64,000 nt of DNA, taken from assembly GCA_963777605.1 (NCBI GenBank), contig CAVZRV010000006.1:32001-96000 (forward strand), in the 5' to 3' direction. Positions 1 through 22,657 of this stretch are shown here, in pieces. The position numbers and the translations under genes were made by a program. The notes under the pieces are model-generated. The model was not told the origin of the DNA. It saw nothing but the letters and a program-made list of their open reading frames with translations, and did no database searches. Origin of the DNA: an uncultured Acidobacteriota bacterium. GTDB taxonomy: Bacteria > Acidobacteriota > UBA6911 > RPQK01 > JAPXNP01. Within the stretch, counting starts at the first letter, position 1, and each line of letters begins with the position of its first letter.

Positions 1-816
1 CGCCTGGTCGATGTCGTCAAGCACGCTTACTTCGTCGGCGAAGGGGTCGAATATCTCCTCCGAGAAGCTATCGACCGCGTCTACCAGGAGTGCGGCCTTT
101 TCGAAGAAACACCCCGCCAATCGCCCAATTTCTTCCAGGTTCGGGCCTATGTCACGGCCAAGCGGCTTCAGGGCCGTATGTCGCTCTGGAAAGCCTCAGC
201 TGTTCGGGTCCTGGAGAGCCTCTGCTTTACGCACGGGCTGGGACCAGTCGTCAACACGAACGCGCCCTGGGCCCACCGGGAGATTCTGTCCCGGCCCGTC
301 ATTCTGGAACTCGACGCACTTTCCGATGCCGACAAAATCTTCTTCACCGAAGCGCTCATCCTATGGATCTATGAAATGCGCAAGGCCGAGCCCAAGCGGG
401 AGATCTTCAAGCACGCTCTTCTGATCGAAGAAGGACACCACGTGCTCTCCCAGGCCAAGGAGAACCACGAAGGGGTCGAGACGATCATGGAAACGAGCCT
501 TCGTCAGATCCGCGAGTTCGGCGAAGCCGTGATCGTGATCGACCAGGAACCGACCAAGCTCAGCAACTCAATCAAGGCCAATACCTACACCAAGTTCGTC
601 TTCAATCTCGGAAACGGCCGGGACAAGGAGGACATCGCGCGCTGTCTCGGACTCGATGACGAGGAGCGACTCTACATCGACCGCCTGGGCGTAGGCGAAG
701 CCGTCGTCTCGACCAAGCGTCCGGGCCTGGTTCCGCTCCATGTGCGGAACCCTCTGGCCGGAGTCCGCAAAGGAATCATCACAGACCTTCGACTGTCGGA
801 ATCTCGCGAGTCCTGA
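1..816 (+). CDS. HerA/VirB4/TraD-like P-loop ATPase, C-terminal part (5' truncated by window edge)
   Basis: Frame 1 is open from base 1 (RLVDVVKHAYFVGEGVEYLLREAID...). Walker B LLIEEGHH, RQIREFG and VIDQEPTKLS...ANT motifs of HerA/FtsK-clade ATPases. Confidence 0.8.
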   Translation, partial: RLVDVVKHAYFVGEGVEYLLREAIDRVYQECGLFEETPRQSPNFFQVRAYVTAKRLQGRMSLWKASAVRVLESLCFTHGLGPVVNTNAPWAHREILSRPVILELDALSDADKIFFTEALILWIYEMRKAEPKREIFKHALLIEEGHHVLSQAKENHEGVETIMETSLRQIREFGEAVIVIDQEPTKLSNSIKANTYTKFVFNLGNGRDKEDIARCLGLDDEERLYIDRLGVGEAVVSTKRPGLVPLHVRNPLAGVRKGIITDLRLSESRES

Positions 817-1190
817 TTTTGTGCGCTCTCGACTATTCTCTGACTCCTTTCTACTCACGACTTTTGAGTCCGGGCGGCTCCGACCGTCTCAAGGCACGTA
901 GTGCGGACTTCACGACAAAATTGAAGAACTTCCCCTCCCTCCCAGTGGGGGGGTGGGCTGCCCCGAGGCATGGCGAAATACCGAAACGTTGTAGATCGAT
1001 TGTTTTGACAATCGAAGATAAGCTGTCGAACAAGACCTTCACACCGATCGCGGAACAAATCATTCTTTCGGGATCCCGGTGAAAGGTCGAAACAATGACT
1101 CATCCAGTCTCTTCAGTCTGTTGCACTCGAAGAAGGCCGACGTCCGGGTGCACTACAATCCTTAACAACGCCCACGACCGGCCTGGAGGC

Positions 1191-1340
1191 ATGCCCAAAT
1201 CCGATGCCCTGGACAGGGCGCTGGCCGAGTTACCCGAGGAGGAGCGTTTCCTGGCCCGGGAGTTCTTTCGCACGCATCGGCGCGTCAACGGACGATGGTT
1301 CCGCTGTGACGAATCTCCAACCGCCAAGGACCGAGACTAA
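1191..1340 (+). CDS. Small hypothetical protein (49 aa, MPKSDALDRALAEL...)
   Basis: GGAGG directly before ATG 1191; ACAATCCTTAA motif about 30 nt upstream. Confidence 0.45.
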   Translation: MPKSDALDRALAELPEEERFLAREFFRTHRRVNGRWFRCDESPTAKDRD

Positions 1341-1367
1341 GACCGCTGCGCCTCGCCACCGCGCGAA

Positions 1368-1398
1368 GAAGAAAAGAGGTTTCGGGGCCGAGACCCCC
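1368..1398 (-). terminator. Probable intrinsic terminator after the 1400-1876 gene
   Basis: Minus strand reads GGGGTCTCGG-cc-CCGAAACCTC (hairpin with G-U pairs) followed by TTTTCTTC. Confidence 0.45.
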
Positions 1399-1399
1399 G

Positions 1400-1876
1400 T
1401 CACTCGGCCGTCACCACGGCCGCCGGCTCCTCTTCGGCCAGGAGGAGGCGCACCCGGGCCATGACCGCCTCGAAGGTCTCCCCGATGGCCGTGGCCTGGG
1501 CCATCGTTAGGAGCTGGAAGCCGTCCTTCGGCTCGAGCTCGCAGAGGACCTCGGTCAGGTACTCGAGGTTGGTGGCTCGGTCGTGCAGCCACGCCGTCAG
1601 GTCGGACGTGTAGACGTCGACGGCCGCGTCGATGTCCTCGGTCGGATCGTACTCTTCGATGTGTTCGTACTCGTCCAGCCAGGCGTTGATGCTTTCGAGC
1701 GCCCGCAGCAGCCACCGGTAGCTGTAGTCGTTGAACGGGTCGAGGATGTCCTCTTCGCCGCCGAACCACTCCCAGGCCCGGCTGTCGTCAAAGACCACGC
1801 GCTGGCGCTGCTGCTCCCGGATCTCCACGTACCGGGCGCTTCGTTCGATCTCGACCAAAGCCTGTCGTATGTTCAT
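1400..1876 (-). CDS. Acidic hypothetical protein, possibly Ocr-like DNA mimic
   Basis: GAGGTG SD before ATG 1876; D/E-rich; segment EDIDAAVDVYTSDLTAWL. Confidence 0.65.
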   Translation of the reverse strand: MNIRQALVEIERSARYVEIREQQRQRVVFDDSRAWEWFGGEEDILDPFNDYSYRWLLRALESINAWLDEYEHIEEYDPTEDIDAAVDVYTSDLTAWLHDRATNLEYLTEVLCELEPKDGFQLLTMAQATAIGETFEAVMARVRLLLAEEEPAAVVTAE

Positions 1877-1970
1877 GTTCCACACCTCGGTGACCCCGTC
1901 TCTGCGGGGCCTTTCGTGCGATAAAGGCCCCGAACGTCAGAATTCCCGGTCCGTCCGGCGCGGCGGCACA

Positions 1971-2005
1971 ATAAACCTGTCGAGTGTGGAAATCGACAGG
2001 TTTAT
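1971..2005. promoter_or_regulatory. Perfect 13-bp inverted repeat ATAAACCTGTCGA-N9-TCGACAGGTTTAT
   Basis: Seen directly in the intergenic region; each arm ends in an outward-facing GGTTTAT. Confidence 0.6.
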
Positions 2006-2161
2006 GATGACGGTTCGCGCCCTGGACCGGGAATCCCCCAGCGGGCCTCGGGTGCCCAGGGTGGAACGCGTCACTCCTTCTTAAATGTTCCTCCAAAACA
2101 TTCCGCAAACCCGCATGCCCACTCGATCGCAGCATGTCGGGATGGGGAAAAAGGGGCCGAG

Positions 2162-2680
2162 TTACGCCCGCTCTTTATCCCCGGGTTTCTCCCCCTCCCC
2201 AGGTGGTCTCGAAGGAAACGGGGGCCCCACTGGAGGAGACTTCCCTGCCCTTCCTGCCGAACCACTTCTGGCGGGTTCCTTCTGCCCCTCCAGGAGCTGC
2301 ATTCGTTGCACCTGGTCGGCGTGCTGTTTGAGCCAGGAACGGCGTTCCTGGGCCAGCCGGGCAAGATCCGCCCATTCCTTCACGACTTCGGCCCGACGTT
2401 CCCGGACGAGCGTGTCGTGCCGTTGCTCGAGGTTCTGGCGCCGTTGGTCGATATGCGGCGCCGAACCGACCGGCCAGTGCTCCAGCTCCAGCAGGTTGTT
2501 TCGGACCGCCAGGGCATCCTCGTCCAATTCGGTCAGCAACCGTTCGGAGATCGACCGCCGGAGCCGGGCCAGGAACTCGATCTCGGTCAAAATATCCGAG
2601 AGGATCCTCACGCGCTCGCCCATCAGGCGATTAAGTACCGCCGAGGACTGGTTACTGCCGGGCTTCGTCGGTGGGTCCAC
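2162..2680 (-). CDS. Coiled-coil hypothetical protein
   Basis: GGAGG SD before GTG 2680; helical heptad pattern (RRQNLEQRHDTLVRERRAEVVKEWADL); overlaps the upstream RHH gene. Confidence 0.6.
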   Translation of the reverse strand: MDPPTKPGSNQSSAVLNRLMGERVRILSDILTEIEFLARLRRSISERLLTELDEDALAVRNNLLELEHWPVGSAPHIDQRRQNLEQRHDTLVRERRAEVVKEWADLARLAQERRSWLKQHADQVQRMQLLEGQKEPARSGSAGRAGKSPPVGPPFPSRPPGEGEKPGDKERA

Positions 2681-2888
2681 TCCGTCGCCTCCCTTTCCGC
2701 TTTGACGCGTCTCCGAGCAGATGCCGGTGGATCTCGATGATCTTCTCTTCGAGGACGCGGTCCTGGCGCAGTGCGGCATAACGCAGGTACGCGGAGAGTG
2801 ACGAGAACCCTTTGCGTTCCGCAGTGGCACGCAGCTCCTGGTGCTGCGTCCGGGTCATGCGGACCTGGACGGCGCGGTTTTTGACCAT
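2652..2888 (-). CDS. Ribbon-helix-helix (CopG/MobC-like) DNA-binding protein
   Basis: MVKNRAVQVRMTRTQHQELRATAERKGFSSLSAYLRYAAL shows the beta strand-helix-G-x-S-x-S-x-Y-L-R RHH pattern. Confidence 0.7.
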   Translation of the reverse strand: MVKNRAVQVRMTRTQHQELRATAERKGFSSLSAYLRYAALRQDRVLEEKIIEIHRHLLGDASKRKGRRRSGPTDEARQ

Positions 2889-2915
2889 GACTGCGCAGTG
2901 GGAACGCGGTGTCAC

Positions 2916-2931
2916 TATTTAAGAGTTTCGA
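2916..2931 (-). promoter_or_regulatory. Archaeal-type BRE/TATA-like motif (CGAAACTCTTAAATA)
   Basis: Ends 28 nt upstream of ATG 2888, which has no SD. Confidence 0.5.
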
Positions 2932-3194
2932 AAAGAAGTTTGGGAAAGGTTTCCCGACCGCTTCGGCCGGAGGATGAGGCCGAAGTCGTAGCTGGCCCGC
3001 AGTCGCCTCAGGTTGTCGTAGAGCGTGCTGGTCGGATACCCGGTTCGCCGGGACATCTCGACGAGACTCATCCGGCAGTCCTGCTCGAGACAGCGCAGGA
3101 TCGCCCGACAGGCCCGCTCCGACGTGCTGACAGGAACCGGTAACACCAGCCCTTCCGCTATGAGCGACTGCCTTTCGTGCGTTGGGTCTTCCAT
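2919..3194 (-). CDS. Lrp/AsnC-type winged HTH protein (HTH only)
   Basis: ILRCLEQDCRMSLVEMSRRTGYPTSTLYDNLRRL matches the AsnC HTH pattern; GGAGGTG SD before ATG 3194. Confidence 0.75.
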   Translation of the reverse strand: MEDPTHERQSLIAEGLVLPVPVSTSERACRAILRCLEQDCRMSLVEMSRRTGYPTSTLYDNLRRLRASYDFGLILRPKRSGNLSQTSFRNS

Positions 3195-3450
3195 ACAGAC
3201 ACCTCCGGGATCTCCAGCCAGGCTGGGTCCCATCTCCAAGACCCAGCCCCCAGACCCGCGTGCCCCTTCAGCGAACCGTCATTTATGCCTTGAGCCGCCA
3301 GGCGACCCGCCAGGGGCAAGGCTTAAATCAGACGGTTTGCGCGGGGCAGGCGGGCGTTGGTGAAGAGGACACCACAATCCTTAATAGAAGCTTGCCCCTT
3401 CAAGAAGCGTACCGATAGACTGCTGATGATTGGAGAACGAAGGGACGAAT

Positions 3451-5837
3451 ATGCTCGAAGACCGGCTCGGCTGCACGCGAACCAAGTCCAAACGGTGGAT
3501 CCAACGGTACGTACGGAAACTCCCAGGTTGCCTGCTCCCGATAGCTGCGATGGCCTGGTTCGGCGGCGCGTACGCCCAGGAAGCGGCGGACTTTCAATAC
3601 TTCGCACACACCGTCCAGGGTGACGGCAACTCCATTCGTATTCTTCTTCTGAACAACAACTACCATCGGGCCTCCGGTTCGGTCCGGTTCCGCACCCAAG
3701 CAGGCGCCCTCGAAGAAGAGATCCCCTACAACCTCGACGGCTGGGCCACCGCCGACTTCACAACAGCACCCGAAGGCAACCTCGCAGTCCAGAGCGGCAC
3801 CCTCCCCGCCAACGTCCAAGCAGTCGAAAGCTTCAACGTACTCGGAAAATACCTCACCATCCCCTCCGGACGCGCCCTCCACAACCAAACAGTCTACGTC
3901 CACCAAGGCAACGGCGAACAAACCAGCCTCGCACTCTACAACCCACACGACCACAGCATCATCGTCCCACTCACCCTCCGCAACAAGGAAGGAGCAACCA
4001 CCAACCAAACCAGCATCCCCATGGAAGCATACGGACAATTCCCCCGACGGCTCAGCGAAATCTTCCCCACCCTCCCCGCAACGTACGAAGGCACCCTCGA
4101 AATCACCAGCGAAGACGGCGTCGCAGCACTCAGCCTCCTCCAACTCCCAACCGGCGACCTCCTCGCAGCCGGAGCAACAAGCCCGAGCGTCACCCCACAA
4201 AGCCTCGAAGAACGCACCACCTACCTCGCACAAAGCGTCACCGGAGCAAACACGAACACCCGACTCATACTCAGCAACCCATACGACAACCCCATCGAAG
4301 GAGACATCACCTTCAACTACGACGGCGAACCAACCATCGAAGGGAACACCACCCACTACACCCTCCCACCCCGCGGCACCACCACACTCACCACGAAAAA
4401 CACCGGACCACTCCGCGCAGGCCCCATCACCATCACCGGAGGCGCAGAAACCAGCGCCTTCCTCAACCTCCTCTCAAAATACTACGTCAGCATCCGCGCA
4501 AACCAAGCAAGCACCAGCTTCCAAACCTACGCCAGCAGCACACCAGAAGAAGACACCGGCGTCGCACTCTACAACCCGGGCAACGAAGACGCGCACATCA
4601 CCCTCACCATCAGCGACACCACCGGCGTACAAGGACCATACGTCCAAGCAGGACTCACACTCCAACCAGGAGAACACGTCGCCAAATACATCAAAGAACT
4701 CACCGCCAACCTCGACAACGCCAGCACAAGGACTCCTCAGCATCACCAGCGACCAAGACATCGCAGCAACCGGACTCCTCCAAAAAACCAGAGGAGACCT
4801 CATCGGACTCCCAACAGCCTACACCCACTACAACCCCACAGACAACATCACACTCCACCTCATCGCCTACGACCTCGGAACACAACAAACCATGCTCGCA
4901 CAGACCGGCACCGAAGCCACCATCACCATCGACAACGAACACACAGCAAACATCATCACCGGACCAGGACAAACACTCGAAATACTCGTCACACACCCCA
5001 ACTACTGGACCGGCGACCTCCTCGACATCCGCGACGGCAACCCCAACGGAGACACAATCGTGCGCGCCGACGGCAGCACACCCTACGGCACCGCGGCCAG
5101 CCTCATCATCCCCGCGGGCTGGGCGGGCCTGGAGAAAACGCTGTATGCCGGCGCCTTGAACAAAACAGAACTCAACGGAAGCCCGATCATCGTCACGAAA
5201 CCCGGATGGCCCAGCAATCATCCCGATGGACAAAGAGAGTCGCCTTCAGCATGCTTCACATGGAGAAACAACACGGTCTTCAGCCACCCGAATCCAGGCA
5301 ACATCACGACATACCTGAACGACTCGGTTGGCGGAACCGAAGGACAAGCAGTTACTCGACCGTTTCCGCAACGTCATTGCCAACTACATCAACGCGACCA
5401 GCCCAGTCACGCAACTCATCATCACGCCCGGACGAGTACATCTACCAACCGGGCGCTACAAGAACGATCTGGTACTCGGTGCCGCAGGATGGCACACCCA
5501 GCAACAGCATCATTGAATACGACAACAACTCAGCTCATATTTCTCTCGTTTGGCATCCGTCGACCGAGTAAAGGTTCCAGGAAATTTCAGGGAGTTTAGT
5601 GAGGAAATCTTAAATGCCATGGGTTTACGCGATCCAATCGTGAGGAACCCAAACAACCCTGCCGACAAACGCAAGCAAGACTTGCCTGTCACCCTCTATT
5701 CGGACTAAGAACAAAACAGCGTAAATGAACTCTTCCAAGACGAGACCAAAGCAGGCACCTACTTACGCAATCTGAAGCTCGGCGGCGGCATCCGCCCCGG
5801 CACGATTCTCATCTACGACGCCGCACACCCGGACTAA
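3451..5837 (+). pseudogene. Large secreted repeat protein, broken by several frameshifts (about 4720, and several between about 5330 and 5710)
   Basis: Signal peptide (AYA-Q) and internally repeated modules (TSLALYNP/TGVALYNP; YEGTLEITSEDGVAAL versus AQGLLSITSDQDIAAT in the next frame after 4720). Confidence 0.65.
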
Positions 5838-5857
5838 TGAGCGGAAGAGACGCTGAT

Positions 5858-7468
5858 TCAGTACACGCTGACGGTGTTATCGACGCAGGCATACTCCCAG
5901 TCCGTATAGCCGACCTGCTGACCGGGATAACAGCACGCAGTCGTCGTCGCGGCCAACAGGTCGACACACTACCAGGAGGAGTCTGCGGAGCGCAATCAAC
6001 ATGGTCCAATACACTTCCACACACCAAGATTCGAGTCCTGACCCCAAATCTCCCCCGGCTGCGGACAGCAGTGTCCCGGATAATTCGCGTTGTTCGCACA
6101 CCAATAGGGATCACTCCCCCTGCTCGCCTCCGGCGTCCCGAAGGGGCTGCCGCCCGTGCACTCACTCGTCGCAGTAATACTCGTCGCAGCACCACAACAA
6201 ACCTCACCATACGCCCCGCAGCAGCTCGCCGTGTACGGCGACGAGGACTCCTGGTCGCAACTATACCCGCACGAACCCCACGACCACGTCGTGTCAGAAC
6301 CCGTGCACGTACTCACCGTATGACCAACACCGGACCCGCACTCCGCCGTGCGGCAGCCGTCCGTCCGGCCGTCACAAAACGCCTTGAATGTCGCAGAAGA
6401 CGGCAAATACCACTTCCACGACTCATCAAGGAACGAACCATCCTTATCCGTATCGACCCGACGACAATACTTCACACCCTCACTATCAGTACAATTAGCA
6501 CCGCACAGCACCGACGACGAACACGTACTGTCATCGCACAACGACCCGCACTCAGCGAGCGTCCCCTGACGCACCGTCTTCGTCTGATCAGCACCCTCCT
6601 GATACGACTTCGCAGGCTCCACGCTGCACCGGAGCAGCTTGTTCCCCGTCGCACTCGACGACATGGTCACATCATACGTACCCCACTGGGCGTCCCACCC
6701 GGCCCAGGCGATGCCAGAACCACTCTCCATCGTCATCTTGATGCTGTTCGCCCGCACCGGGCCGACCTCGCACCCCACGGACAACACCTCACCAGGACAA
6801 TAAAACGAATCAGCACGCGCACCAGTAATCTCCACCCGGCAAGCCGTGTCGCCATGCAAACCGCACGTGGCACACAAGGCCTGATTGTCATAATCACTCT
6901 CACCATTCCCATCCTCATCACCAGAACCCTGAGAACAAACCTCGGAAGGCGCGGCGATGACCAGCTGCCCCGAGGCCTTCACCTCCGCGTCAGCAGTGCT
7001 TGGAAAGATCGAACTCAAACCAGCACTCGCACGGCAATAGACATCATACGTGCCCGGCGTCCATCCAGACACATCCATCGCCTGCGAATACAACTGGAGA
7101 GGGCCGGGCAAAGCCCAATTCTGAGAAGGAAAATCATAAGTCGAAGGCCCGACAGCGTGCCCATACGCCCCCGAGTCGAAACCACACGTCTTCGCAGTAC
7201 AGGAACTCACCGCCAACGTGTTCGAGATTGAAAAAGAGACCGTGACCGCATCCCCCGAACGAGACCACGCACAGGACCCGATGTACACTCCCGGATACTC
7301 AACGGGATTCAAAAAAGGAATGCAATACCCCTCAGTGACACTCCCAGCAGTCGTATCACAAATCGAACCAGGACCACACTGCCCGACCGTCTGCGTACAC
7401 GCAGCCATAACTGCAGGAACCAAACAGACCGCGGCAACAGCGCACACGAACCACAGCACCAGCCTCAC
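5858..7468 (-). CDS. Cysteine-rich secreted/surface protein; in-frame stop at 5996, C-terminal tail appears frameshifted to 5858
   Basis: GTG start overlaps the upstream TGA; signal peptide; many Cys including CC pairs; other frames continue DHVDCAPQ...TCWP and TACCYPGQQVGYTDWEYACVDNTVSVY*. Confidence 0.7.
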
Positions 7469-7920
7469 ACCCGCACCCCCGGCACCGTCCGGATGACCGG
7501 CAGCATCGGCCCGGGCGAACGCTCCTGGATCGGCCCCGGCACGAGAAGATACCAGCCCGGCGACAACGACAACGACTGGCCATTCCAGTCCGACGAGCAC
7601 CAGACAGGCTCCAACGCCGCCCGGGAATCATCCCAGCGATACACCCGCGCCTCCCACAGGCAGGAGAACGAGACCTCGGAATCGGGAAGCACCTCGAACA
7701 ACGCCGCCGGCGACGAACCAGGCCACTCCACCCCGAGCAGCTCACCACACTCGGCAGGCGACAACGAGCCCGAAGGCCCATCCGCGGAGACCGCGACCGT
7801 GCCGCACGAGACCGAGAACGGCGCCGACTGCATGACCCGATCGTCCGGCACCGCCGGCACATCATCAACAGCCTGCCCGCACGCCGCCAACACGACCAGA
7901 ACCACGAGCAACCACCGCAT
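7465..7920 (-). CDS. Putative lipoprotein
   Basis: MRWLLVVLVVLAAC lipobox-type signal; coupled to the downstream Cys-rich gene. Confidence 0.65.
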   Translation of the reverse strand: MRWLLVVLVVLAACGQAVDDVPAVPDDRVMQSAPFSVSCGTVAVSADGPSGSLSPAECGELLGVEWPGSSPAALFEVLPDSEVSFSCLWEARVYRWDDSRAALEPVWCSSDWNGQSLSLSPGWYLLVPGPIQERSPGPMLPVIRTVPGVRV

Positions 7921-7942
7921 AGCCGTCTCCGCGCGCCAGGGC

Positions 7943-7995
7943 TATTTAAAATTTGTGCTCGGGCGCACTGGCCACTCCGCCGTACGCTTTAAAAA
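7943..7995. promoter_or_regulatory. Divergent archaeal-type TATA boxes (TTTAAATA on minus, TTTAAAAA on plus)
   Basis: First T lies at -30 from ATG 7920 and -26 from ATG 8014; these are the only AT-rich patches in a very GC-rich context. Confidence 0.6.
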
Positions 7996-8013
7996 CAAGG
8001 CCTCCCCACGGCG

Positions 8014-8559
8014 ATGCGCCGCGGCCTCGACGACCGGAACATCCTGGATGAGTTCGTCCTCGACTTCGTCAGGGTGCTCGAACCCCACGCGTACATGATC
8101 GTCTCGGGCTACCTCGCCATCAGCCACGGCCGCGCCACCGAGGACATCGACCTCATCCTCGAACGCCTCGACGAAGCAGCATTCAGCACGCTCCACCGCG
8201 CCCTCGTCGCGGCCGGCTTCACATGCATGCAGGGCGAGGACCCCCACGAGCTGTACACGGACTACCTCAGCCGGTCGACGGCCGTCCGCTACACGCGAAC
8301 GGGCGAGTTCCTCCCCGAGATGGAAGTCAAGTTCGCCAAGGACGCGCTCGACGAGGAGCAGCTGCAACAGCGCGTCAAGCTCCCCCTCACCGGCCTCGAC
8401 GTCTGGTTCGCGCCCGTCGAAGCAGGCATCGCCTTCAAGGAAGCCTACCTCGGAACGCCCAAAGACCAGGAGGACGCGCGCCGCCTCAGACTCATCTACC
8501 AGGACGAACTCGACGAAGAGGAGATCGAACGATGGAAACGACGACTCACGCAACGCTAG
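8014..8559 (+). CDS. Pol-beta superfamily nucleotidyltransferase (AbiEii/DUF6036-like)
   Basis: IVSGYLAISHGRATEDIDLIL (G..A..HG.R.T.DxD) and C-terminal K...PKDQEDA motif. Confidence 0.75.
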   Translation: MRRGLDDRNILDEFVLDFVRVLEPHAYMIVSGYLAISHGRATEDIDLILERLDEAAFSTLHRALVAAGFTCMQGEDPHELYTDYLSRSTAVRYTRTGEFLPEMEVKFAKDALDEEQLQQRVKLPLTGLDVWFAPVEAGIAFKEAYLGTPKDQEDARRLRLIYQDELDEEEIERWKRRLTQR

Positions 8560-8756
8560 ACCCCGACCGCGCAGCCGCCATCGACCGGTGGGCAGCCCAC
8601 GTACGCACCCATCCCGACTGGAAGCGCGAACACACCGCGTTCATCAACGCCCAGTTCGAGAAAGCAGCAGCATTCTACAAACGCCTCGCCGCAACCGAAG
8701 ACGGCCGGAAACGGCTCGCACGGCTCCGGAAGCACCGCGCGGGACAATCCTTATAG
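8532..8756 (+). CDS. Small helical partner protein (putative antitoxin)
   Basis: 74 aa (METTT...IDRWAAHVRTHPDWKREHTAFINAQF), overlapping the NTase 3' end. Confidence 0.6.
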   Translation: METTTHATLDPDRAAAIDRWAAHVRTHPDWKREHTAFINAQFEKAAAFYKRLAATEDGRKRLARLRKHRAGQSL

Positions 8757-8759
8757 GCC

Positions 8760-9290
8760 GTGGCACCAACACGGTTTACCTGCACAGCGTCCAGCGCGCC
8801 ACCGAAGAGGCGCTCGCCTGCGACCCCCACCACCCTCACGGACGAGAGGCTCACACTGGCCAGGCCTCGAACAAGTCCCGACCACGCATCACCTTCTCCT
8901 GAACCCGGCGCGGCAGGCCCCCAACGACCAGGAAGGACTGTCGGGAACGCCCAAGCCACGCACAAGGTGGACCGCGAGGAATGCCGTCTCGACGTCCGCC
9001 GAACGAACCCCCAGATGGCGGCAGCGATGGACAACGACATCGTCGCCCTCCTCGAGTACACCGACCGGCTCGCCGCCAGCACGCCGGAACAGCTCCGCCA
9101 GGCCGGCGTCCGGAACTGGACGCTCGACTACATCCACCAGACCCTCCACGGCGCACCCGCCGAGGACATCCTCCGCACAGTGCCCTCCCGGCCGCCGCCC
9201 ATCAGCTACACCGGCGGCCGCCCCCTCAGCGAGGACCCGAGCCCCGCAACGCCCCAAGAAGCCGGCTACCAACCGGGAGGCCACCACTAG
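8760..9290 (+). CDS. Hypothetical protein (start uncertain)
   Basis: The C-terminal half (MDNDIVALLEYTDRLAASTPEQLRQAGVRNWTLDYIHQTL) looks protein-like; the N-terminal half is doubtful. Confidence 0.35.
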   Translation: MAPTRFTCTASSAPPKRRSPATPTTLTDERLTLARPRTSPDHASPSPEPGAAGPQRPGRTVGNAQATHKVDREECRLDVRRTNPQMAAAMDNDIVALLEYTDRLAASTPEQLRQAGVRNWTLDYIHQTLHGAPAEDILRTVPSRPPPISYTGGRPLSEDPSPATPQEAGYQPGGHH

Positions 9291-9937
9291 GAAGCAAGCG
9301 GACACCCTCACGCCAGGAACACAGCCGAAGCAAGGAAAAAGCCGGATACGCGAGCAGCCGCATGCTCGGAATCCACCCCGAGCGCCACCGCCACGTACCA
9401 GCCGGCGACGTTCCCCCGCCCCCCGCGACCAAGGCCACCGGTCAAAGCAACCGAACGGCCACACCACCAAGCCGAAAGCCCCGACAAGCAGCCAGACGCG
9501 GCACGACGCCGAACCGAGTACCCAGCACGCGAGCAGCACGGCCACATCCACCGCGAACGCCACCCACCGGCGACAAGGCCGGCGCGCCCCACCCTGAACG
9601 CGTACTGCGCCGGCGGCAGCCCGCCTTCCGCGTTCGACGCCCGCGGAACGCGGCCAATACCACGGCCGACCGCCATCCCGGGACAACCACCCAAGGACGG
9701 CCGGAGCACGAACGCAGCCCCCCTTGCATCGCAAGCGCCCGGCCGACAAAGCCCGCGATCCCGGCGCTCACGAGGAAGGTCGACGCGCGAACAGGCAGCA
9801 GAAGGAACGCGCTGCGCACCGCGAATCCCTCCGAATCATAAAGATCCCGGAACCCTCGCCAGACCCACGTCGAGCCCTCGCGCCCAAGCACGCCGCCCGC
9901 GCGAAGACACGTAAGAACCGAAGAACTCGAGGAGCCG

Positions 9938-9967
9938 CCCCCCCCCCCCTCCCCCCCCCCCTCCCCC
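9938..9967 (+). repeat. Poly-C tract interrupted by single T residues
   Basis: About 30 nt of near-pure C, seen directly. Confidence 0.9.
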
Positions 9968-10410
9968 TAGCTCTCGCACGGCTCCCAGGTGTAGACGTTC
10001 AACGTCACGGGCTGGCCCAAATACCGGATGACCCGGGTGAACGAAACCAAGTCCTTCATACACCCGCCCGCCTCGACCGCAGAATCGCACCTTGGGCTTG
10101 TACACCTCGCCGCAGCACTGGACGTAATCCGTGCTGTTGTACGACCGCCACTCGCCCGGCGCCAACAAGATGCTGGAAAGTGGGAAAGCCGAAGTCAACG
10201 CTGAGATGGAACGATTACGGCTGGAACTTGGAAAAGTCAAAGAAGCTGCTTCCGCTGCATTCGCCCGGTCCGGAAAAGCCAATGAAATGGCCGGTCAACT
10301 CGGTCAGAAGTAGCAAGATTGGCTGCTTGGGGCCCGTCACCTCAGGAAGGAGTAACACGCCGAATCCTAGTGCGAACCCTTGCCTAAAATTTATGGACTC
10401 AATATCTCAT

Positions 10411-15710: not shown

Positions 15711-15721
15711 GTGGCCGTTCG

Positions 15722-15750
15722 AAGCGGGGGACTCCCGATGGCCCCCGCTT
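15722..15750 (+). promoter_or_regulatory. 9-bp hairpin AAGCGGGGG...CCCCCGCTT between the peptide and JAB genes
   Basis: Seen directly; could be an mRNA stabiliser or partial terminator. Confidence 0.5.
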
Positions 15751-15773
15751 TCAGAAACCAGGAGTCGAAACTC

Positions 15774-16439
15774 ATGAGGAACTATCTCTTTAACCAATCA
15801 TCCGCATCGACCATGCTGGTTGAGTGCTTCCGGCGAGGTGACCAGCGAGAGGCGGGCGGTATCCTCGCCGAACGCGACGGTACGCGGGTGATTACCGACG
15901 CCGTGCCATCCACCGAACATGCCGAGCGCCAACGTTACACCTACTACCAGAGCCCGGAAGACGTCGCCTATCTGAACAACGTTCTCAGAAAGCTCGAGAC
16001 ACAAGGTCGAAGATTCTGCGGCTACTTCCATCGCCACCCCTCCGGTATGACCGGCTTGAGCCAGGGCGATCTGGACAGCTGTCGCCAGATCCTGAAGGAT
16101 CCGCACTATTTTCTGCCGGACGGGCTCTTGATGCTGATCATCACCGATTCGGAACGTTCCCGGATCCCGATTTTCCCGTACCTGGTCCGGCTCGAGGAGG
16201 ACCGTCCGGTGGTCGAACCCGTCACCATGACGATCCTTCCGGATGATCAGGTCGACACGATTCTTTCTTATCTCGAAGTGCCTCAGACAAACCGAAACAG
16301 CAAGGAGTTTTACGATGAAGAAGTGGTTCATTCTGGATCAGGCCCTCTCCGGCCAGTCTTCCGACCTGTACGTCCTGGAAACCGAGGACGGGCATATCAT
16401 CAGTTCGACGCCGCTCGACGCGAGCTTCAAGAAGGTTGA
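15774..16439 (+). CDS. JAB/MPN+ (Mov34) metalloprotease
   Basis: REAGGIL...GYFHRHPSGMTGLSQGD is the JAMM motif E...HxH..x..SxxD; AGGAG SD. Confidence 0.9.
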   Translation: MRNYLFNQSSASTMLVECFRRGDQREAGGILAERDGTRVITDAVPSTEHAERQRYTYYQSPEDVAYLNNVLRKLETQGRRFCGYFHRHPSGMTGLSQGDLDSCRQILKDPHYFLPDGLLMLIITDSERSRIPIFPYLVRLEEDRPVVEPVTMTILPDDQVDTILSYLEVPQTNRNSKEFYDEEVVHSGSGPLRPVFRPVRPGNRGRAYHQFDAARRELQEG

Positions 16440-17459
16440 GCAGGTCCGGGTCCCGTCCCAGACCGATTTTCAGGCTCGCAATGCCGGCCTCGTCGATCCC
16501 TCACGGCTCCAGGAGCATCGCATCCTGATCATCGGTGTCGGCAGCGGCGGTTCGAAGACCGCGACGAGCCTGGTGAGATCGGGGGCGATCAATCTGACAC
16601 TGGTCGATTTCGACCGGGTCGAAGTCTCCAACCTCTGTCGCTCGGAGTACGAACTGCCCGATGTCGGCGAGCTGAAGGTCGAGGCCTTGAAACGGCGCCT
16701 GTTGCGGATCAACCCGATGGCCCGGATCGAGGTCATCAGTAAGAACCTGCATGAGATGAGCCGCACTGAGGTCGAAGAGCTAATCGCGGGGCACGATCTC
16801 TGCTTTGAGTGCACCGACGATCCCAAGACCAAGCTGATCATCAACGCGGTCGCCTACGATCAGATCCCGGTGATCTACCCGGCCGTCTACGACGGGGGCA
16901 AGGGGGCGAGGTGCTCTACACCCTGCCCGGCATCACGCCCTGTTATCAGTGCATCATGGGCTCGATTCTTCCGCAGATGACCGAGGTCAAACGGGGGGAT
17001 TGGGACTATACGACCGGCACGCTGAAGCCGATGGCGGGGCTGAACTCCCACATCGACGTGGTGGTTGCGCGAAGTATCGATATCGCCCTGGCCATTCTGT
17101 CGGCAGGAACCGAGACGGATCGCTCGGACAAAGTCCTGGTGCCGGGTTCTTCCATTCTCTTTATCGGCAACGAGAGTGGGTTCTTCATTTTCGACGAGCC
17201 TTTCCAGGAGATCTGGGGGGAGACGGAAATCGACCCCGACTGTCCCTGTCAGCAAGCCCCCAGCCGGGAACCCGAGGGCAAACGCGATGAAGCGATCGAT
17301 GCCGAGGCTATCGCCTCGAGACCGGAAGATCCTCAACCTGTTGCGGCTGAGCCCGCACACGACGTCCCAGCTCGCCCGTCTCCTGTTTCCGAACCGGAAG
17401 AAGGCGAGTCAGCGGCTTCGGCAACTGACCGCGGCCGGCCACCTGAAACGGTTCAGTAG
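16315..17459 (+). CDS. E1-like ThiF/MoeB adenylyltransferase with one frameshift at the G run near 16900
   Basis: IIGVGSGGS, DFDRVEVSNLCR and KVEALKRRLLRINP; after the shift GEVLYTLPGITPCYQC...DPDCPC (Zn-binding Cys pairs). Confidence 0.85.
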
Positions 17460-18034
17460 CCCAATCGTCCACCCGACCGGCCGGCCCGAGTTCGTCTATA
17501 CGGGCCGGTCGGGTGCCGCGCAGCTATCACCTGATCCGACACGCACTTCAGGTGTCCGAGGTAACCGTGATCCTGCACGAATGGTTAGCTGAGAACCCGG
17601 AATTTACGGGCCGTCTCTACTGGCCGCAACAGGTCATACTGACGGGCGGGATCATTCCGGATGGGATCTTCACCGTGGCCCAAGGTGATCGGATGCTGCT
17701 CTTCCTGATCGAGGTGGATCGGGGCACGGAATCAAAGGCCGGTGCAGACTACAGCGTCCGTCGGAAGCTCATCGCCTATGGCGAATACTTCGATTCGGGA
17801 AGGTTTGCGGAGGATTACGCGATGCTCGGGACGTTCAACTCCTTTCGAGTGGTCTTCGTCTCTGTATCGGAATTGGCGTTGCCGGGGCTGCTCCGAATCG
17901 CCGCGGAAACCCAGACTGATTTCGTCTACTTCAAGCCAATGTCAAAGCTCACTCCCAAGACCTTTCCCGAGTCATGGGCTACGGCAAACCAGGATCGAGC
18001 GGACCTCTTTGGACGCACCGAGAGACAGACATGA
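17287..18034 (+). CDS. Replication-relaxation (Replic_Relax) family protein; frameshift near 17510
   Basis: RDRKILNLL...TTSQLARLLF...ASQRLRQL (wHTH), then IRHALQVSE, IIPDGIF and FLIEVDRGTE...KLIAY. Confidence 0.8.
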
Positions 18035-20313: not shown

Positions 20314-20324
20314 GGAGAACCACC

Positions 20325-20933
20325 ATGCCGGAGATTCAATCCGTCGACCAGATTATGGCCCTCCTCCACATCGACGTCATCGGACAGATCGAGGCGGCGC
20401 ATGACATGATCCGTCAATCCGTACAGATTGAGCCGACCGTTGCGAGCTACCCCGAGTTTCAGGAAACTGTTGGCGACTACGTCCGCTACCACAACGCCAT
20501 GTGGCACGGCGTCGACCCCGGACAGGACCGGGCGTGGGGGCAAGCCCGCGCGGCCATCGATGAGCAGATGCGACCCGAGCCGACGCTTGCGAGAATTCGA
20601 GGTTTTCTCGACGCCCAGGGAAGCTATGTCCAGGCGATCAAGAACGGGCTCACCGGCCGTCACGGAGGGATGATCGGTGTCATCGATACCATCGCTGAGC
20701 AGATCAAAAAGGAAGCCGTCAGCCAGTGGGTTCGCTCGGTCTTTCTGACCCACATCAATCCGCTTGATTTCGACCGGAAGGTGGAATTCGCCCGGGAGTA
20801 TCTCGCAACCTACGGCGCACTCTTGCTTCCCAATGAAACGACGATGTCGCCCTACGAGCTGGCGGCGCAGATCGAGGTCCTCTTGGAGACCCACGTCCGA
20901 TTGGTGAACCAACTGCGGGACCGGTTACAGTAG
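20325..20933 (+). CDS. Hypothetical helical protein
   Basis: AAGGAG SD; clean 202-aa ORF in the operon. Confidence 0.75.
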   Translation: MPEIQSVDQIMALLHIDVIGQIEAAHDMIRQSVQIEPTVASYPEFQETVGDYVRYHNAMWHGVDPGQDRAWGQARAAIDEQMRPEPTLARIRGFLDAQGSYVQAIKNGLTGRHGGMIGVIDTIAEQIKKEAVSQWVRSVFLTHINPLDFDRKVEFAREYLATYGALLLPNETTMSPYELAAQIEVLLETHVRLVNQLRDRLQ

Positions 20934-22279: not shown

Positions 22280-22341
22280 TAGAGCACAAGTTCGACGATT
22301 CACCTTCTGATTTCGGGCAAAGGGTGCCAGGAGGTGAATTA

Positions 22342-22587: not shown

Positions 22588-22657
22588 GCGCTGCTCTCTC
22601 GATTGCCAGAAACCGGTCAACAGCCGCCCGGCGGCTTTCGGTGAAAGGAAGTACAAG

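What the first reader, a model, noticed from the sequence alone, without database searches (positions are those of the whole stretch)
1100..8760. Archaeal-looking (DPANN-like) gene block with TATA-type promoters inside a bacterial island
Seen: TATA-like boxes sit at archaeal spacing before several starts. CGAAACTCTTAAATA ends 28 nt before ATG 2888, TTTAAATA starts at -30 of 7920 and TTTAAAAA at -26 of 8014; the 2888 and 8014 starts have no SD. Established: archaeal promoters are BRE+TATA centred near -26, often with leaderless mRNA, and bacterial RNAP does not use them. Recall, unverified: the NTase/small-protein pair, lone AsnC HTH, RHH, coiled-coil and Cys-rich surface proteins resemble families common in Woesearchaeota/Pacearchaeota. 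Inference: interdomain transfer carried by the element, or a chimeric join.
Basis: partly seen in the sequence, partly recalled or inferred. Interest (0 to 1): 0.85.

Follow-up and report, generated by a model that had tools for sequence, protein, structure and literature searches.

The report
Bacterial island carrying one archaeal-type toxin cassette
This stretch is part of a bacterial mobile island, not an archaeal gene block, but it holds one two-gene toxin-like cassette otherwise seen almost only in archaea, and it lies in DNA with an extreme, unexplained one-strand base bias.

Summary
The "archaeal block" reading holds for only 0.75 kb of 7.7 kb.

**Archaeal part.** Genes 8014-8559 and 8532-8756 (a nucleotidyltransferase plus a small partner) belong to a family found in 80 of 80 best genome loci from archaea (DPANN, Methanoperedens). 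It was not found in 400 genomes of the host's phylum. The fold matches MenT1/AbiEii toxins. Its codon use is fully host-like, so the transfer is old.

**Bacterial part.**
- The RHH (NikA-like), coiled-coil and DUF87 ATPase genes, plus ArdC and an ECF sigma just upstream of the window, have homologues in same-order bacteria. ArdC, sigma, NikA and coiled-coil lie in that order in one of them.
- The large secreted-protein gene has paralogues across the host genome and is a frameshifted pseudogene.
- Two minus-strand genes encode lipobox proteins without close relatives.

**Promoters.** The same BRE/TATA-like motif precedes clearly bacterial genes, including the island's own sigma gene. The assembly has no TBP or TFB. 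The boxes are best read as bacterial promoter elements.

**Unexplained.** In 3.7-9.9 kb, four-fold sites almost lack T on the + strand (0-3%) whichever way a gene points, and one tract has sharp edges. No reads were available to test the poly-C junction at 9937-9968.

The parts
1..816 (+). C-terminal 271 aa of a 450-aa DUF87/HerA-TraG-like ATPase (starts at C6:31464, upstream of the window); island backbone
   Evidence: Pfam DUF87, P-loop_TraG, TrwB_AAD_bind. 1033 homologues at 55-71% identity, the two organism-named ones Acidobacteria and Thermodesulfobacteriota. 62% aa homologue in same-order genome G426.
1400..1885 (-). Acidic 161-aa protein of unknown family
   Evidence: No Pfam, NCBIfam or PHROG family above threshold. 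0 of 250 other genomes of the host phylum match. Codon score at the 99.7th percentile of host ORFs.
1942..2034 (.). Imperfect 42-nt inverted repeat with a 9-nt loop; a conserved element of unknown role (oriT, terminator or RNA)
   Evidence: the repeat finder pair I1. Bases 1955-2019 are 85% identical in two same-order genomes, G426 and G230.
2165..2650 (-). Coiled-coil protein downstream of the RHH gene; island backbone
   Evidence: 34% (228 aa) and 38% (149 aa) homologues in same-order bacteria: in L169 downstream of the NikA-like gene, in L164 downstream of the ATPase homologue.
2652..2888 (-). NikA-like ribbon-helix-helix mobilisation protein (78 aa from ATG 2888)
   Evidence: Pfam PF21983 at 31.1 bits, cut-off 27. 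NCBIfam MobA weak. 54% aa homologues in G230 and G426, and 74% DNA identity over 100 nt.
2916..2930 (-). CGAAAC-TC-TTAAATA motif; overlaps the TAA stop of the HTH gene
   Evidence: Read. It is one of 12 genome-wide hits of the 'CGAAAC, 0-3 nt, T plus five or more A/T' pattern, and two of those lie in this island, both before an ATG.
2919..3239 (-). Small HTH protein (AsnC/HTH_24 type); likely start ATG 3194 behind GGAGG
   Evidence: Pfam HTH_24 and HTH_AsnC-type. HTH core matches 69 of 201 DPANN-phylum genomes (best 33 bits) against 3 of 250 host-phylum genomes (best 23.7 bits).
3430..5835 (+). Large secreted beta-sandwich-repeat protein gene, now a pseudogene: frame changes near 4728, 5345, 5440 and 5570, and a stop near 5706
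   Evidence: Three-frame reading and codon-score frame plot. Weak DUF5719 hit. 23-30% paralogues on at least 12 contigs of the host genome.
3721..5089 (.). Tract 1 of extreme strand bias, with sharp edges inside the large gene
   Evidence: Third codon positions: T 0 of 317 pyrimidine-ending codons, A 132 against G 18. 30-codon bins switch at 3721 and 5090. Leu is CTC in 50 of 50 codons, Ser is AGC in 24 of 26.
5996..7472 (-). Cys-rich predicted lipoprotein (about 491 aa; probable GTG start overlapping the stop of the gene before it)
   Evidence: Lipobox-like ...VMAAC. No homologue by word-indexed search. 4 weak hits (E 3e-9 to 4e-7) among 1.84 billion representatives.
7465..7920 (-). 151-aa predicted lipoprotein (signal ...VVLAAC), GGAG at -10..-7
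   Evidence: ORF and translation, upstream read. No family found.
7943..7995 (.). Divergent spacer with two A/T boxes (7943-7954 and 7988-7995) either side of a TGGCCA palindrome (7969-7974)
8014..8559 (+). 181-aa nucleotidyltransferase of an archaeal (DPANN/Methanoperedens) family with a MenT1/AbiEii-like fold
   Evidence: distribution. AF2 model mean pLDDT 86. Foldseek best match MenT1/MenAT1, E 2.6e-6, TM 0.61. All 47 invariant columns of the 17-row alignment are kept.
8532..8756 (+). 74-aa helical partner protein; overlaps the NTase stop by 28 nt
   Evidence: A homologue lies directly downstream of the NTase in 76 of 80 archaeal loci. Alignment A2. Complex prediction gave weak support only.
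8760..9935 (.). GC 0.65-0.71 stretch with a 91-aa ORF (9015-9290, +) and membrane-protein-like minus-strand pieces in three frames (about 9300-9890)
   Evidence: About 95%-like contigs cover 8865-9247 in two runs of one study. No family or relatives found.
9937..9968 (.). Poly-C tract (C13 T C12 T C5) at the right-hand end of the biased DNA
   Evidence: Base bias returns to normal right after it. A relative's contig on 9969-10164 continues leftwards with unlike sequence.

Best explanation
The stretch is part of a bacterial integrative mobile island of at least 57 kb. The island runs from the contig start to a tyrosine integrase beside tRNA-Lys, in a host that is probably an Acidobacteriota member (inferred from best hits).

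**Backbone, 1-3.4 kb.** Together with the DNA just upstream, this is a backbone shared with same-order bacteria: ArdC, an ECF sigma factor, a DUF87 ATPase, a NikA-like RHH protein and a coiled-coil protein.

**Cargo, 3.4-9.9 kb.**
- A decayed gene for a large secreted repeat protein that has host paralogues.
- Two lipoprotein genes.
- One intact two-gene cassette (8014-8756) whose family is otherwise almost confined to archaea.

**The cassette.** It encodes a MenT/AbiEii-like nucleotidyltransferase plus a small helical partner. It most likely works as a toxin-antitoxin or abortive-infection pair: the enzyme blocks translation by adding nucleotides to tRNA 3' ends, and the partner holds it in check. 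This mechanism is inferred from fold likeness, not shown. The cassette reached bacterial mobile DNA by interdomain transfer long ago, because its codon use and amino-acid make-up now fit a high-GC bacterial setting.

**The A/T-rich boxes.** They are real promoter-like elements, but of the island. The CGAAAC-plus-T/A-box motif also precedes backbone genes, including the island's own sigma gene. It is most simply a bacterial promoter, possibly read by that sigma factor. The box before the NTase gene may descend from the family's archaeal TATA box, but it sits 3-4 nt too close for that use.
For: **Bacterial host and island.**
- TonB-dependent receptor, GH2 and GcvP genes lie in the window.
- A tyrosine integrase at 24023-25120 lies next to tRNA-Lys at 25135-25210.
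- ArdC, DUF5131, SNF2, AAA ATPases, a sigma-54 activator and HTH_3 lie upstream. The ECF sigma scores TIGR02937 48.1 bits against a cut-off of 42.9.
- There is no TBP or TFIIB in the assembly, while 4 of 4 archaeal control genomes ring.

**Backbone shared with bacteria.**
- ATPase: 1033 homologues at 55-71% identity.
- NikA at 54% in G230 and G426, coiled-coil at 34-38% in G230 and in a second G426 locus.
- G230 has ArdC-like, sigma-like (31%), NikA-like and coiled-coil genes in that order.

**Cassette archaeal in distribution.**

**Fold.** Foldseek best match is MenT1/MenAT1, E 2.6e-6, TM 0.61. The model's mean pLDDT is 86.

**Partner binding.** Predicted complex score 0.37 (runs 0.34, 0.65, 0.37), best control 0.00.
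- The mark was reached by 58 of 80 solved complexes and 2 of 110 mismatched pairs.
- At 0.60 or under it was reached by only 7 of those 80, and by both mismatches that passed.
- The runs agree in at least 4% of contacts, and the partner's pLDDT is at least 68.
- The tool's verdict is weak support.

**Old transfer.**
- The codon score of the NTase gene is at the 99.7th percentile of 738 host ORFs, and its GC is 0.65. The archaeal loci have GC 0.25-0.56.
- Amino acids: K 3.3% and R 9.9%, against family means of 10.9% and 6.4%.
- The nearest relative is only 63% identical.

**Motif on bacterial genes.** It occurs at C6:28354, C6:30334 and window 2930. A TTAAAAA box starts 29 nt before the ATG of the NikA homologues in G230 and G426.
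Against: - No transcript starts are known, so the promoter type is not shown either way. The consensus scan found no sigma-70-type site at any of the three starts.
- Box geometry before 7920, before 2888 and before the 373-aa gene at C6:28392 is compatible with archaeal BRE/TATA and very short leaders. Geometry alone does not favour the bacterial reading.
- The ECF reading of the motif is mine and was not tested statistically.
- The HTH core resembles DPANN proteins more than host-phylum ones.
- The acidic protein, both lipoproteins and the 9015 ORF have no informative relatives, so their origin is open.
- The organism of the nearest NTase relative (P0002) could not be looked up, so the direction and route of transfer are inferred from distribution only. 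The family tree is unresolved: 43 of 89 inner branches are open.
- The NTase has no Pfam AbiEii hit at E up to 0.1. Its partner lies downstream, unlike menA1.
- The extreme strand bias of 3.7-9.9 kb is not explained by this account.
Confidence: 0.6

Rival explanations
1. The whole biased segment (about 3.4-9.9 kb) is DNA of an archaeal plasmid or virus of unusually high GC. The bacterial island captured it, and it still carries its own BRE/TATA promoters and leaderless genes.
For: - The cassette family is archaeal, and its members have a sharp BRE/TATA signal with leaderless geometry.
- The box before 7920 (A-run at -34..-32, box at -31..-23) fits that profile.
- The segment's base make-up is unique in the genome.
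- Most of its genes have no bacterial relatives.
Against: - The large gene in the segment has 23-30% paralogues on at least 12 host contigs.
- Both minus-strand genes have bacterial-style lipoboxes, and one has a GGAG at -10..-7.
- Apart from the cassette, no gene of window 1-26000 matches within the segment's range in about 150 archaeal loci with flanks.
- No relative was found in viral contigs.
- GC of 0.57-0.71 exceeds every archaeal locus fetched, the highest being 0.56.
- The NTase's own box is 3-4 nt off the archaeal position and lacks the A-run.
Confidence: 0.1
2. The segment is joined to the bacterial contig by an assembly error, for instance through the poly-C tract. No transfer took place.
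For: - The right end is a 32-nt poly-C tract, a kind of sequence that attracts artefacts: the two runs laid hold poly-C contigs at summed depth of about 9000-10000.
- A relative's contig on 9969-10164 continues leftwards with unlike sequence.
- The assembly's contamination estimate is 5.68%.
- The source reads could not be found.
Against: - A false join at the poly-C would only detach the right part. The cassette would still be joined, without any homopolymer, to the NikA, ATPase, sigma and ArdC genes on its left.
- The bias starts inside an open reading frame that runs on in frame across 3721.
- A 1079-nt contig from another sample lies on 3256-3353, 3607-3736 and 4084-4172 in one piece, and runs on with A+C-rich letters (laid at 85% likeness, so it is a relative).
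- The NTase gene's codon use is host-like.
- No TBP or TFIIB is anywhere in the bin.
Confidence: 0.07
3. The cassette was not transferred from archaea. The family is an old, mobile toxin-antitoxin family present in both domains, or it moved from bacteria to archaea, and its bacterial carriers are simply undersampled or unnamed.
For: - DUF1814/AbiEii-type enzymes are described as widespread in bacteria and archaea (PMC7450476, passages read).
- The Atlas lists bacterial AbiEii/DUF6036 clusters at feature scores of 0.94.
- One named hit is bacterial (Sphaerochaetaceae).
- The window's copy and P0002 form their own long branch.
- Within the DPANN phylum sampled the family is patchy: 48 of 201 genomes, with up to 3 copies.
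Against: - 80 of 80 best genome loci, 13 of 14 named proteins and 10 of 10 plasmid hits are archaeal.
- 0 of 400 host-phylum genomes hold a close relative.
- The two-gene arrangement is kept in 76 of 80 archaeal loci.
Confidence: 0.15

Closest known systems
MenT1-MenA1 (MenAT1) and AbiEii: DUF1814 nucleotidyltransferase toxins
   Same: - The predicted fold of the 181-aa enzyme matches MenT1 best (Foldseek E 2.6e-6, TM 0.61).
- Similar size, with Pol-beta-type G-S ... D-x-D residues kept (my reading).
- It is paired with a short protein of about 70 aa, as MenT1 is with the 68-aa MenA1 (PMC7450476 and PMC10435456, passages read).
   Different: - 18-21% identity only.
- No Pfam AbiEii hit at E up to 0.1, and the profile search of PDB sequences gave E 0.22.
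- The partner gene lies downstream here, in 76 of 80 loci. menA1 lies upstream of menT in 15 of 21 cases (PMC10435456).
- The partner is predicted helical and shows no detected likeness to MenA1.
- Activity on tRNA is untested.
The uncharacterised archaeal NTase plus small-protein cassette (DPANN, Methanoperedens/ANME-2, more distantly haloarchaeal megaplasmids)
   Same: - 48-63% identity over the full length.
- All 47 invariant columns are kept.
- The partner lies directly downstream.
   Different: - It lies in a bacterial contig.
- GC is 0.65 against 0.25-0.56 for the archaeal loci.
- K-to-R and I-poor make-up.
- A two-residue gap in the loop before the D-x-D motif.
- The A/T box starts at -26 instead of -29/-30 and has no A-run before it.
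- It may be the DPANN cluster called 'MNT fused to HEPN' in PMC6393860 (passages read). I could not check this: the family lists are in files I could not see.
Archaeal BRE/TATA promoters with leaderless mRNA
   Same: - An 8-nt A/T box 23-31 nt before the ATG, in two cases behind a purine/A-rich stretch.
- No Shine-Dalgarno motif at 2888 and 8014.
   Different: - The host assembly has no TBP or TFB.
- The same motif precedes bacterial backbone genes, and a similar box precedes NikA homologues in other bacteria.
- 7920 has a GGAG that a leaderless mRNA would lack.
ECF sigma-factor promoters (autoregulated)
   Same: - The CGAAA[CG] element lies just upstream of the island's own ECF sigma gene and of two other island genes.
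- ECF sigmas commonly read a -35 element containing AAC followed by T-rich spacer, and often drive their own gene (recalled, not from a call).
   Different: - The downstream element (CGT/GTC, 14-19 nt away) is my reading, and its spacing is variable.
- The two boxes at 7943-7995 lack the CGAAA element.
- No experimental or statistical test was made.
tRNA-integrated mobilisable islands with NikA/MobA-type relaxosome proteins
   Same: - An integrase beside tRNA-Lys.
- A NikA-like RHH protein, ArdC and a TraG/HerA-like ATPase.
   Different: - No relaxase was identified in the parts I scanned.
- No att repeat was found on the contig.
- The left end lies beyond the contig start.
Strand asymmetry of vertebrate mitochondrial DNA
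   Same: - One strand is A+C-rich at neutral sites whichever way a gene points. This is the pattern expected if the other strand suffers C-to-T and A-to-G changes while single-stranded (recalled comparison).
   Different: - Here it is a 6-kb piece of a bacterial island.
- T, rather than G, is the letter that almost vanishes.
- One tract has sharp edges inside a gene.
- No replication mechanism is known for it.

Membership tests
Archaeal BRE/TATA promoter with leaderless transcript | TATA-like 8-mer starting about 29-30 nt before a leaderless start codon | tested here: inconclusive
   Yardstick: 135 archaeal upstreams of the same gene family, of which 117 start at -27..-33. Window boxes: 7920 at -31 (fits), 2888 at -34 (needs a short leader), 8014 at -26 (1 of 135 archaeal cases).
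Archaeal BRE/TATA promoter with leaderless transcript | Purine/A-rich BRE directly upstream of the box | tested here: inconclusive
   GAAA lies before the 2888 box and AAA before the 7920 box. None lies before the 8014 box. The family profile has A/T at -34..-32.
Archaeal BRE/TATA promoter with leaderless transcript | TBP and TFB present in the organism that reads it | tested here: not met
   PF00352 and PF00382: 0 hits in the 96.7%-complete assembly. 4 of 4 archaeal control genomes ring.
Archaeal BRE/TATA promoter with leaderless transcript | Transcript start 22-28 nt downstream of the box | not testable with these tools
   No RNA data could be laid on the stretch.
MenT/AbiEii (DUF1814) nucleotidyltransferase toxins | Sequence match to the family model (Pfam PF08843) | tested here: not met
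   No Pfam hit at E up to 0.1. PDB sequence profile search: 8an4 at E 0.22. Atlas feature score 0.94 to AbiEii clusters, a lead only.
MenT/AbiEii (DUF1814) nucleotidyltransferase toxins | MenT-type two-lobed NTase fold | tested here: met
   Foldseek: 8an5_A at E 2.6e-6, TMq 0.61. The best 12 matches are all MenT1 or MenT3/TglT, using a model with pLDDT 86.
MenT/AbiEii (DUF1814) nucleotidyltransferase toxins | Pol-beta motifs I and II (G-S, D-x-D) and C-terminal motifs III and IV | tested here: inconclusive
   S31, G32, D44 and D46 are invariant in alignment A1, and K142, K150, D151 and D154 are invariant in the C-terminal helices. Their equivalence to motifs III and IV was not checked residue by residue.
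MenT/AbiEii (DUF1814) nucleotidyltransferase toxins | Cognate antitoxin encoded upstream; toxicity neutralised by it | tested here: not met
   The partner lies downstream in 76 of 80 loci. Toxicity cannot be tested here. Binding prediction gave weak support (0.37 against control 0.00).
Archaeal NTase plus small-partner cassette | Full-length likeness and all family-invariant residues | tested here: met
   48-63% identity at 90-100% coverage. 47 invariant columns include the window's protein.
Archaeal NTase plus small-partner cassette | Small helical partner directly downstream | tested here: met
   Window 8532-8756. Homologues lie in 76 of 80 loci. Alignment A2 has W19 and G57 invariant.
NikA-like RHH mobilisation proteins (PF21983) | Score above Pfam's gathering cut-off | tested here: met
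   31.1 bits against 27.
tRNA-integrated genomic island | Tyrosine integrase next to a tRNA gene | tested here: met
   PF00589 at E 5e-23 on 24023-25120. tRNA-Lys(ttt) at 25135-25210.
tRNA-integrated genomic island | Direct repeat of the tRNA end at the far boundary | tested here: not met
   No repeat longer than 13 nt on contig C6. The island may run past the contig start.

The most novel reading that the evidence does not exclude
The 6-kb segment carrying the archaeal-type cassette bears the footprint of a strongly strand-asymmetric process not described for bacterial islands.

At four-fold sites the + strand has 0-3% T in seven genes of both orientations. Tract 1 (3721-5089) switches on and off inside one gene.

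T persists at first and second codon positions, so this looks like a long mutation-selection balance rather than one burst. The minus strand has repeatedly suffered A-to-G and C-to-T change. That would fit a replicon or transfer intermediate in which that strand is single-stranded, or a strand-targeted deaminase.

Such an element could be the vehicle that moved the cassette between domains.
Probability: 0.3. Interest if true: 0.75.

Novelty: new variant of a known kind. Interest (0 to 1): 0.5.

Why it matters
- **A dated transfer.** This is a concrete case of an archaea-associated toxin-like cassette living in a bacterial mobile island. It has been there long enough to take on bacterial codon use. 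Transfers in this direction are reported less often than the reverse.
- **A caution.** A BRE/TATA-looking motif at about -30 in GC-rich DNA is not evidence of archaeal transcription. Here the same motif precedes bacterial backbone genes, including an ECF sigma gene.
- **An untested family.** The cassette family is common in DPANN genomes and untested. A MenT-like activity with a downstream partner would be a new arrangement of a known toxin type.
- **The strand bias.** It is the part a genome-evolution specialist would find odd. If it marks a single-strand phase or a strand-targeted mutator, it gives a sequence signature by which to find such elements elsewhere.

Tried and rejected
**Led nowhere**
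- Cys-rich protein: no homologue in the word-indexed search. Only 4 weak partial hits in the exhaustive search.
- Viral contigs: no relatives of the NTase alignment, the large gene, the Cys-rich gene or ORF 9015.
- Metagenome contigs: 71 loci with the NTase, none above 60% identity, so no closer relative or shared context.
- Atlas search of ORF 9015: no usable hit.
- PHROGs and NCBIfam gave nothing for the cargo genes.
- Rfam found only the tRNA.
- No flanking repeats around the biased segment. No att repeat.
- The sigma-70 consensus scan found 2 sites in 12.5 kb, as many as in shuffles, and none at the starts in question.
- The NTase tree (92 rows: 80 loci, the window, and 11 of the 120 listed proteins) was unresolved. 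It placed the window only beside P0002.

**Reads**
- The look-up of sequencing runs listed 2 runs of one study with 5-6% of the words. No RNA holder is listed.
- Laid at 85% likeness, their contigs lie on 2508-3353, parts of 3607-4172, 8865-9247 and 9969-10164 only. The rest of the stretch had no cover, which shows nothing.
- The source reads were not available, so the joins could not be tested.

**Considered and rejected**
- Translational selection as the cause of the bias. Genes on opposite strands show mirror-image codon choice.
- A single hypermutation burst. T remains at codon positions 1 and 2 while it is 0 of 317 at position 3.
- A context-specific deaminase. No clear dependence on neighbouring bases was seen.
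- A recent transfer from a low-GC DPANN genome.
- A filamentous-phage remnant. No Rep or Zot-like gene was seen, and genes lie on both strands (my reading).

**Limits**
- Alignment A1 used 17 of the 120 listed proteins. A2 used 22 of 100 extracted partner ORFs.
- The upstream analysis used 144 of 151 archaeal or metagenome loci (135 distinct). Its tie-break favoured -30.
- The host control used 156 genes picked for an unambiguous ATG on contigs of at least 50 kb.
The family lists of PMC6393860 and the menA1 neighbour table of PMC10435456 might bear on family identity and gene order.

Full report
**Context**

The window is C6:32001-96000 of a 6.73-Mb assembly of 53 contigs. Its GC is 0.588, completeness 96.7% and contamination 5.68%.

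The contig is bacterial. It holds a TonB-dependent outer-membrane receptor, a GH2 glycosidase and GcvP. The assembly has no TBP or TFIIB gene, although the same searches ring in 4 of 4 archaeal control genomes.

A tyrosine integrase (24023-25120) lies beside tRNA-Lys (25135-25210). The 32 kb of contig before the window hold ArdC, DUF5131, SNF2 helicases, AAA ATPases, a sigma-54 activator, an HTH_3 protein and an ECF sigma factor. No att repeat was found.

The finding therefore lies inside an island of at least 57 kb. That the host is an Acidobacteriota member is my inference from best hits.

**The observation**

- The 2930->2916 motif ends 28 nt from ATG 2888.
- TTTAAATA on the minus strand starts 31 nt before ATG 7920.
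- TTTAAAAA starts 26 nt before ATG 8014.
- No Shine-Dalgarno 4-mer precedes 2888 or 8014. Start 7920 has GGAG at -10..-7.

They are not chance by this genome's standards. A/T runs of 8 or more occur at 0.19 per kb, and two sit in the 93-nt spacer 7921-8013 (P about 1.5e-4). Among 156 host genes with an unambiguous ATG, only 6 A/T runs of 6 or more start at -35..-21, and there is no positional peak.

**Gene by gene**

| Coordinates | Strand | What it is | Key evidence |
|---|---|---|---|
| 1-816 | + | End of a 450-aa DUF87/TraG-like ATPase | 1033 homologues at 55-71%; the two organism-named ones are Acidobacteria and Thermodesulfobacteriota |
| 1400-1885 | - | Acidic 161-aa protein | No relatives in 250 host-phylum genomes |
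| 2165-2650 | - | Coiled-coil protein | 34-38% homologues in same-order bacteria |
| 2652-2888 | - | NikA-like RHH protein | Pfam 31.1 bits against 27 |
| 2919-3239 | - | Small AsnC/HTH_24-type HTH protein | |
| 3430-5835 | + | One gene for a secreted repeat protein, now broken | |
| 5996-7472 | - | Cys-rich predicted lipoprotein, about 491 aa | |
| 7465-7920 | - | 151-aa predicted lipoprotein | |

- **Backbone.** Same-order genomes G230 and G426 hold 54% homologues of the RHH gene. In G230 a 34% homologue of the coiled-coil gene follows it. A second G426 locus holds a 62% ATPase homologue followed by a 38% coiled-coil homologue. In G230 the order is ArdC-like, sigma-like (31%), NikA-like, coiled-coil. 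This is the backbone of a bacterial mobile-element family.
- **HTH protein.** Its 36-aa core finds 69 of 201 genomes of a DPANN phylum (best 33 bits) against 3 of 250 host-phylum genomes (best 23.7 bits). This is a weak lean only, because the hits are 150-190-aa proteins and E-values scale with genome size.
- **Large gene.** The frame changes near 4728, 5345, 5440 and 5570, and a stop lies near 5706 (three-frame reading, codon-score frame plot). Its repeat domain has 23-30% paralogues on at least 12 host contigs.
- **Cys-rich protein.** It has only 4 weak partial relatives among 1.84 billion representatives.

**The archaeal-type cassette**

Gene 8014-8559 (181 aa) has 315 homologues. The best 120 are 48-63% identical over the full length.

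Distribution:
- Of the 14 rows that name an organism, 13 are archaeal (Pace-, Woese-, Nanoarchaeota, Diapherotrites, one 'Euryarchaeota') and 1 is bacterial.
- In species-representative genomes, 295 stretches encode a relative, and all 80 best loci are archaeal by record title. They are DPANN lineages plus Methanoperedens, ANME-2 and Methanosarcinales.
- A homologue of the small gene 8532-8756 lies directly downstream in 76 of these 80 loci.
- The plasmid collection gives 10 hits, all haloarchaeal, at 31-35%.
- The top Atlas clusters are 100% Archaea.
- 48 of 201 genomes of a DPANN phylum have the gene at E up to 1e-10, some with 2-3 copies.
- In 400 other genomes of the host's phylum, the best matches are E 2e-4 or worse.

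Structure and function:
- The protein keeps all 47 invariant columns of a 17-row alignment.
- Its model (pLDDT 86) matches MenT1/MenAT1 best (E 2.6e-6, TM 0.61), then MenT3/TglT.
- MenT toxins add nucleotides to tRNA acceptor ends. MenT1 is blocked by the 68-aa MenA1, which is encoded upstream (PMC7450476 and PMC10435456, passages read). Here the partner is downstream.
- A complex prediction gave weak support: 0.37 against a best control of 0.00. See Best explanation for the calibration counts.

I read the pair as a MenT-like toxin-antitoxin or abortive-infection module. That function is inferred.

**Age of the transfer**

- The NTase gene has GC 0.65 and a host-codon score at the 99.7th percentile of 738 host ORFs.
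- The archaeal loci have GC 0.25-0.56.
- Its make-up has shifted: K 3.3% and R 9.9% against family means of 10.9% and 6.4%.
- Its nearest relative is 63% identical, and that relative's organism is unknown.

This is not a recent import from a typical DPANN genome.

**Promoters**

The archaeal homologues show a textbook signal. In 135 distinct upstreams, the TATA-like 8-mer starts at -29 or -30 in 75 and at -27..-33 in 117. An A-rich stretch lies at -34..-32. This implies leaderless transcripts.

The window's box starts at -26, as in 1 of 135, and has no A-run. It may be a displaced relic, but it cannot serve that start in the archaeal way.

The BRE/TATA-looking motif at 2930 is not special to the 'archaeal' part.
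- CGAAA[CG], then 1-2 nt, then a T/A box also lies 23 nt before the ATG of a 373-aa gene at C6:28392.
- It also lies 31 nt before ATG C6:30379 of the island's ECF sigma gene.
- The stricter CGAAAC pattern has only 12 hits in the whole genome, and two of them are in this island.
- The NikA homologues of G230 and G426 have a TTAAAAA box starting at -29.

So boxes at about -30 are a habit of this family of bacterial elements. The ECF sigma is a candidate reader of the CGAAAC motif, but that is my reading and is untested. Geometry cannot tell the two promoter types apart. The absence of TBP and TFB can.

**The strand bias**

From about 3.7 to 9.94 kb the + strand is A+C-rich. GC skew reaches -0.43 and AT skew reaches +0.67. 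It is the longest and strongest such stretch in the genome.

The bias follows the strand, not the gene. The share of T at four-fold sites, written as + strand letters, is:

| Gene | Strand | T at four-fold sites |
|---|---|---|
| Large gene, tract 1 (two frames) | + | 0 of 191 and 0 of 65 |
| Cys-rich gene | - | 0.03 |
| Lipoprotein gene | - | 0 of 100 |
| NTase | + | 0 of 92 |
| Small partner | + | 0.02 |
| ORF 9015 | + | 0 of 54 |
| Four host genes | both | 0.10-0.14 |

Codon choice is mirror-image between the strands.
- In tract 1, Leu is CTC in 50 of 50 codons, Ser is AGC in 24 of 26, and Glu is GAA in 25 of 26.
- In the minus-strand genes, Tyr is TAT in 19 of 21, Glu is GAG in 29 of 29, and Leu is mostly TTG.

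Tract 1 has sharp edges inside the large gene, at 3721 and 5090.

T survives at first and second codon positions. This looks like long mutation-selection balance under A-to-G and C-to-T pressure on the minus strand, not a single burst. No neighbour-base context stands out.

A contig from another sample that lies on 3256-4172 continues with A+C-rich letters, so the bias is not peculiar to this assembly.

I have no tested explanation. Candidates are a past life in a replicon or transfer intermediate whose minus strand is single-stranded, or a strand-targeted mutator. The cassette shares the T-free state, so it has been in this setting for a long time.

**Assembly**

The source reads could not be found.

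Evidence against a false join on the left:
- The reading frame is continuous across 3721.
- The bridging contig of a relative covers 3256-4172.
- The cassette's codon use is host-like.

The right end is a poly-C tract (9937-9968), and a relative's sequence diverges exactly there. That junction remains open. Even if it is false, the cassette stays linked to the bacterial backbone on its left.

**Verdict**

One old archaea-to-bacteria transfer of a MenT-like cassette is well supported by distribution. An archaeal block with working TATA promoters is not.

Noticed in passing
window 3700-9936 (tract 1: 3721-5089): Extreme bias that follows the strand and not the gene. Four-fold sites have 0-3% T on the + strand in seven genes of both orientations. 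Tract 1 has sharp edges inside one gene. This is the only such stretch in the 6.7-Mb genome.
   Followed up: yes
window 3430-5835: The large secreted-protein gene is broken by four frame changes (near 4728, 5345, 5440 and 5570) and a stop (near 5706). Minus-strand membrane-protein-like pieces at about 9300-9890 also sit in three frames.
   Followed up: partly
C6:28354-28368, C6:30334-30347 and window 2916-2930 (-): A shared motif of CGAAA[CG], 1-2 nt, then a T/A box, lying 23-31 nt before the ATGs of a 373-aa gene, the island's ECF sigma gene and the NikA-like gene. It may be an island-specific (ECF-type?) promoter.
   Followed up: partly
window 1942-2034: An imperfect 42-nt inverted repeat. 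Its core (1955-2019) is 85% identical in two same-order genomes (L165, L168). It could be an oriT, a terminator or a small RNA.
   Followed up: no
window 9937-9968: A poly-C tract (C13 T C12 T C5) exactly where the biased DNA ends. A relative's contig diverges at this point.
   Followed up: partly
L026:4136-7587: In one archaeal locus, a 609-aa DUF87/HerA-like ATPase (30% identical to the window's ATPase C-terminus) lies directly before the NTase pair. An RHH-plus-PIN pair follows, and the whole lies next to grpE-dnaK-dnaJ.
   Followed up: no
window 7969-7974: A TGGCCA palindrome midway between the two A/T boxes of the divergent spacer. It may be an operator.
   Followed up: no
window 1628-1642 and 8137-8151: A 15-nt perfect inverted match. 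Both copies encode T-E-D-I-D, in the acidic protein and in the NTase's catalytic motif. Probably chance.
   Followed up: no
window 15711-23782: The right half of the island holds JAB-like, ThiF/E1-like and radical-SAM-like genes, which may form a defence or modification module.
   Followed up: no
G000:C31:262251-263750: A 1.5-kb stretch with 78% T. It is the only other place in the genome with under 10% A or T per kb.
   Followed up: no
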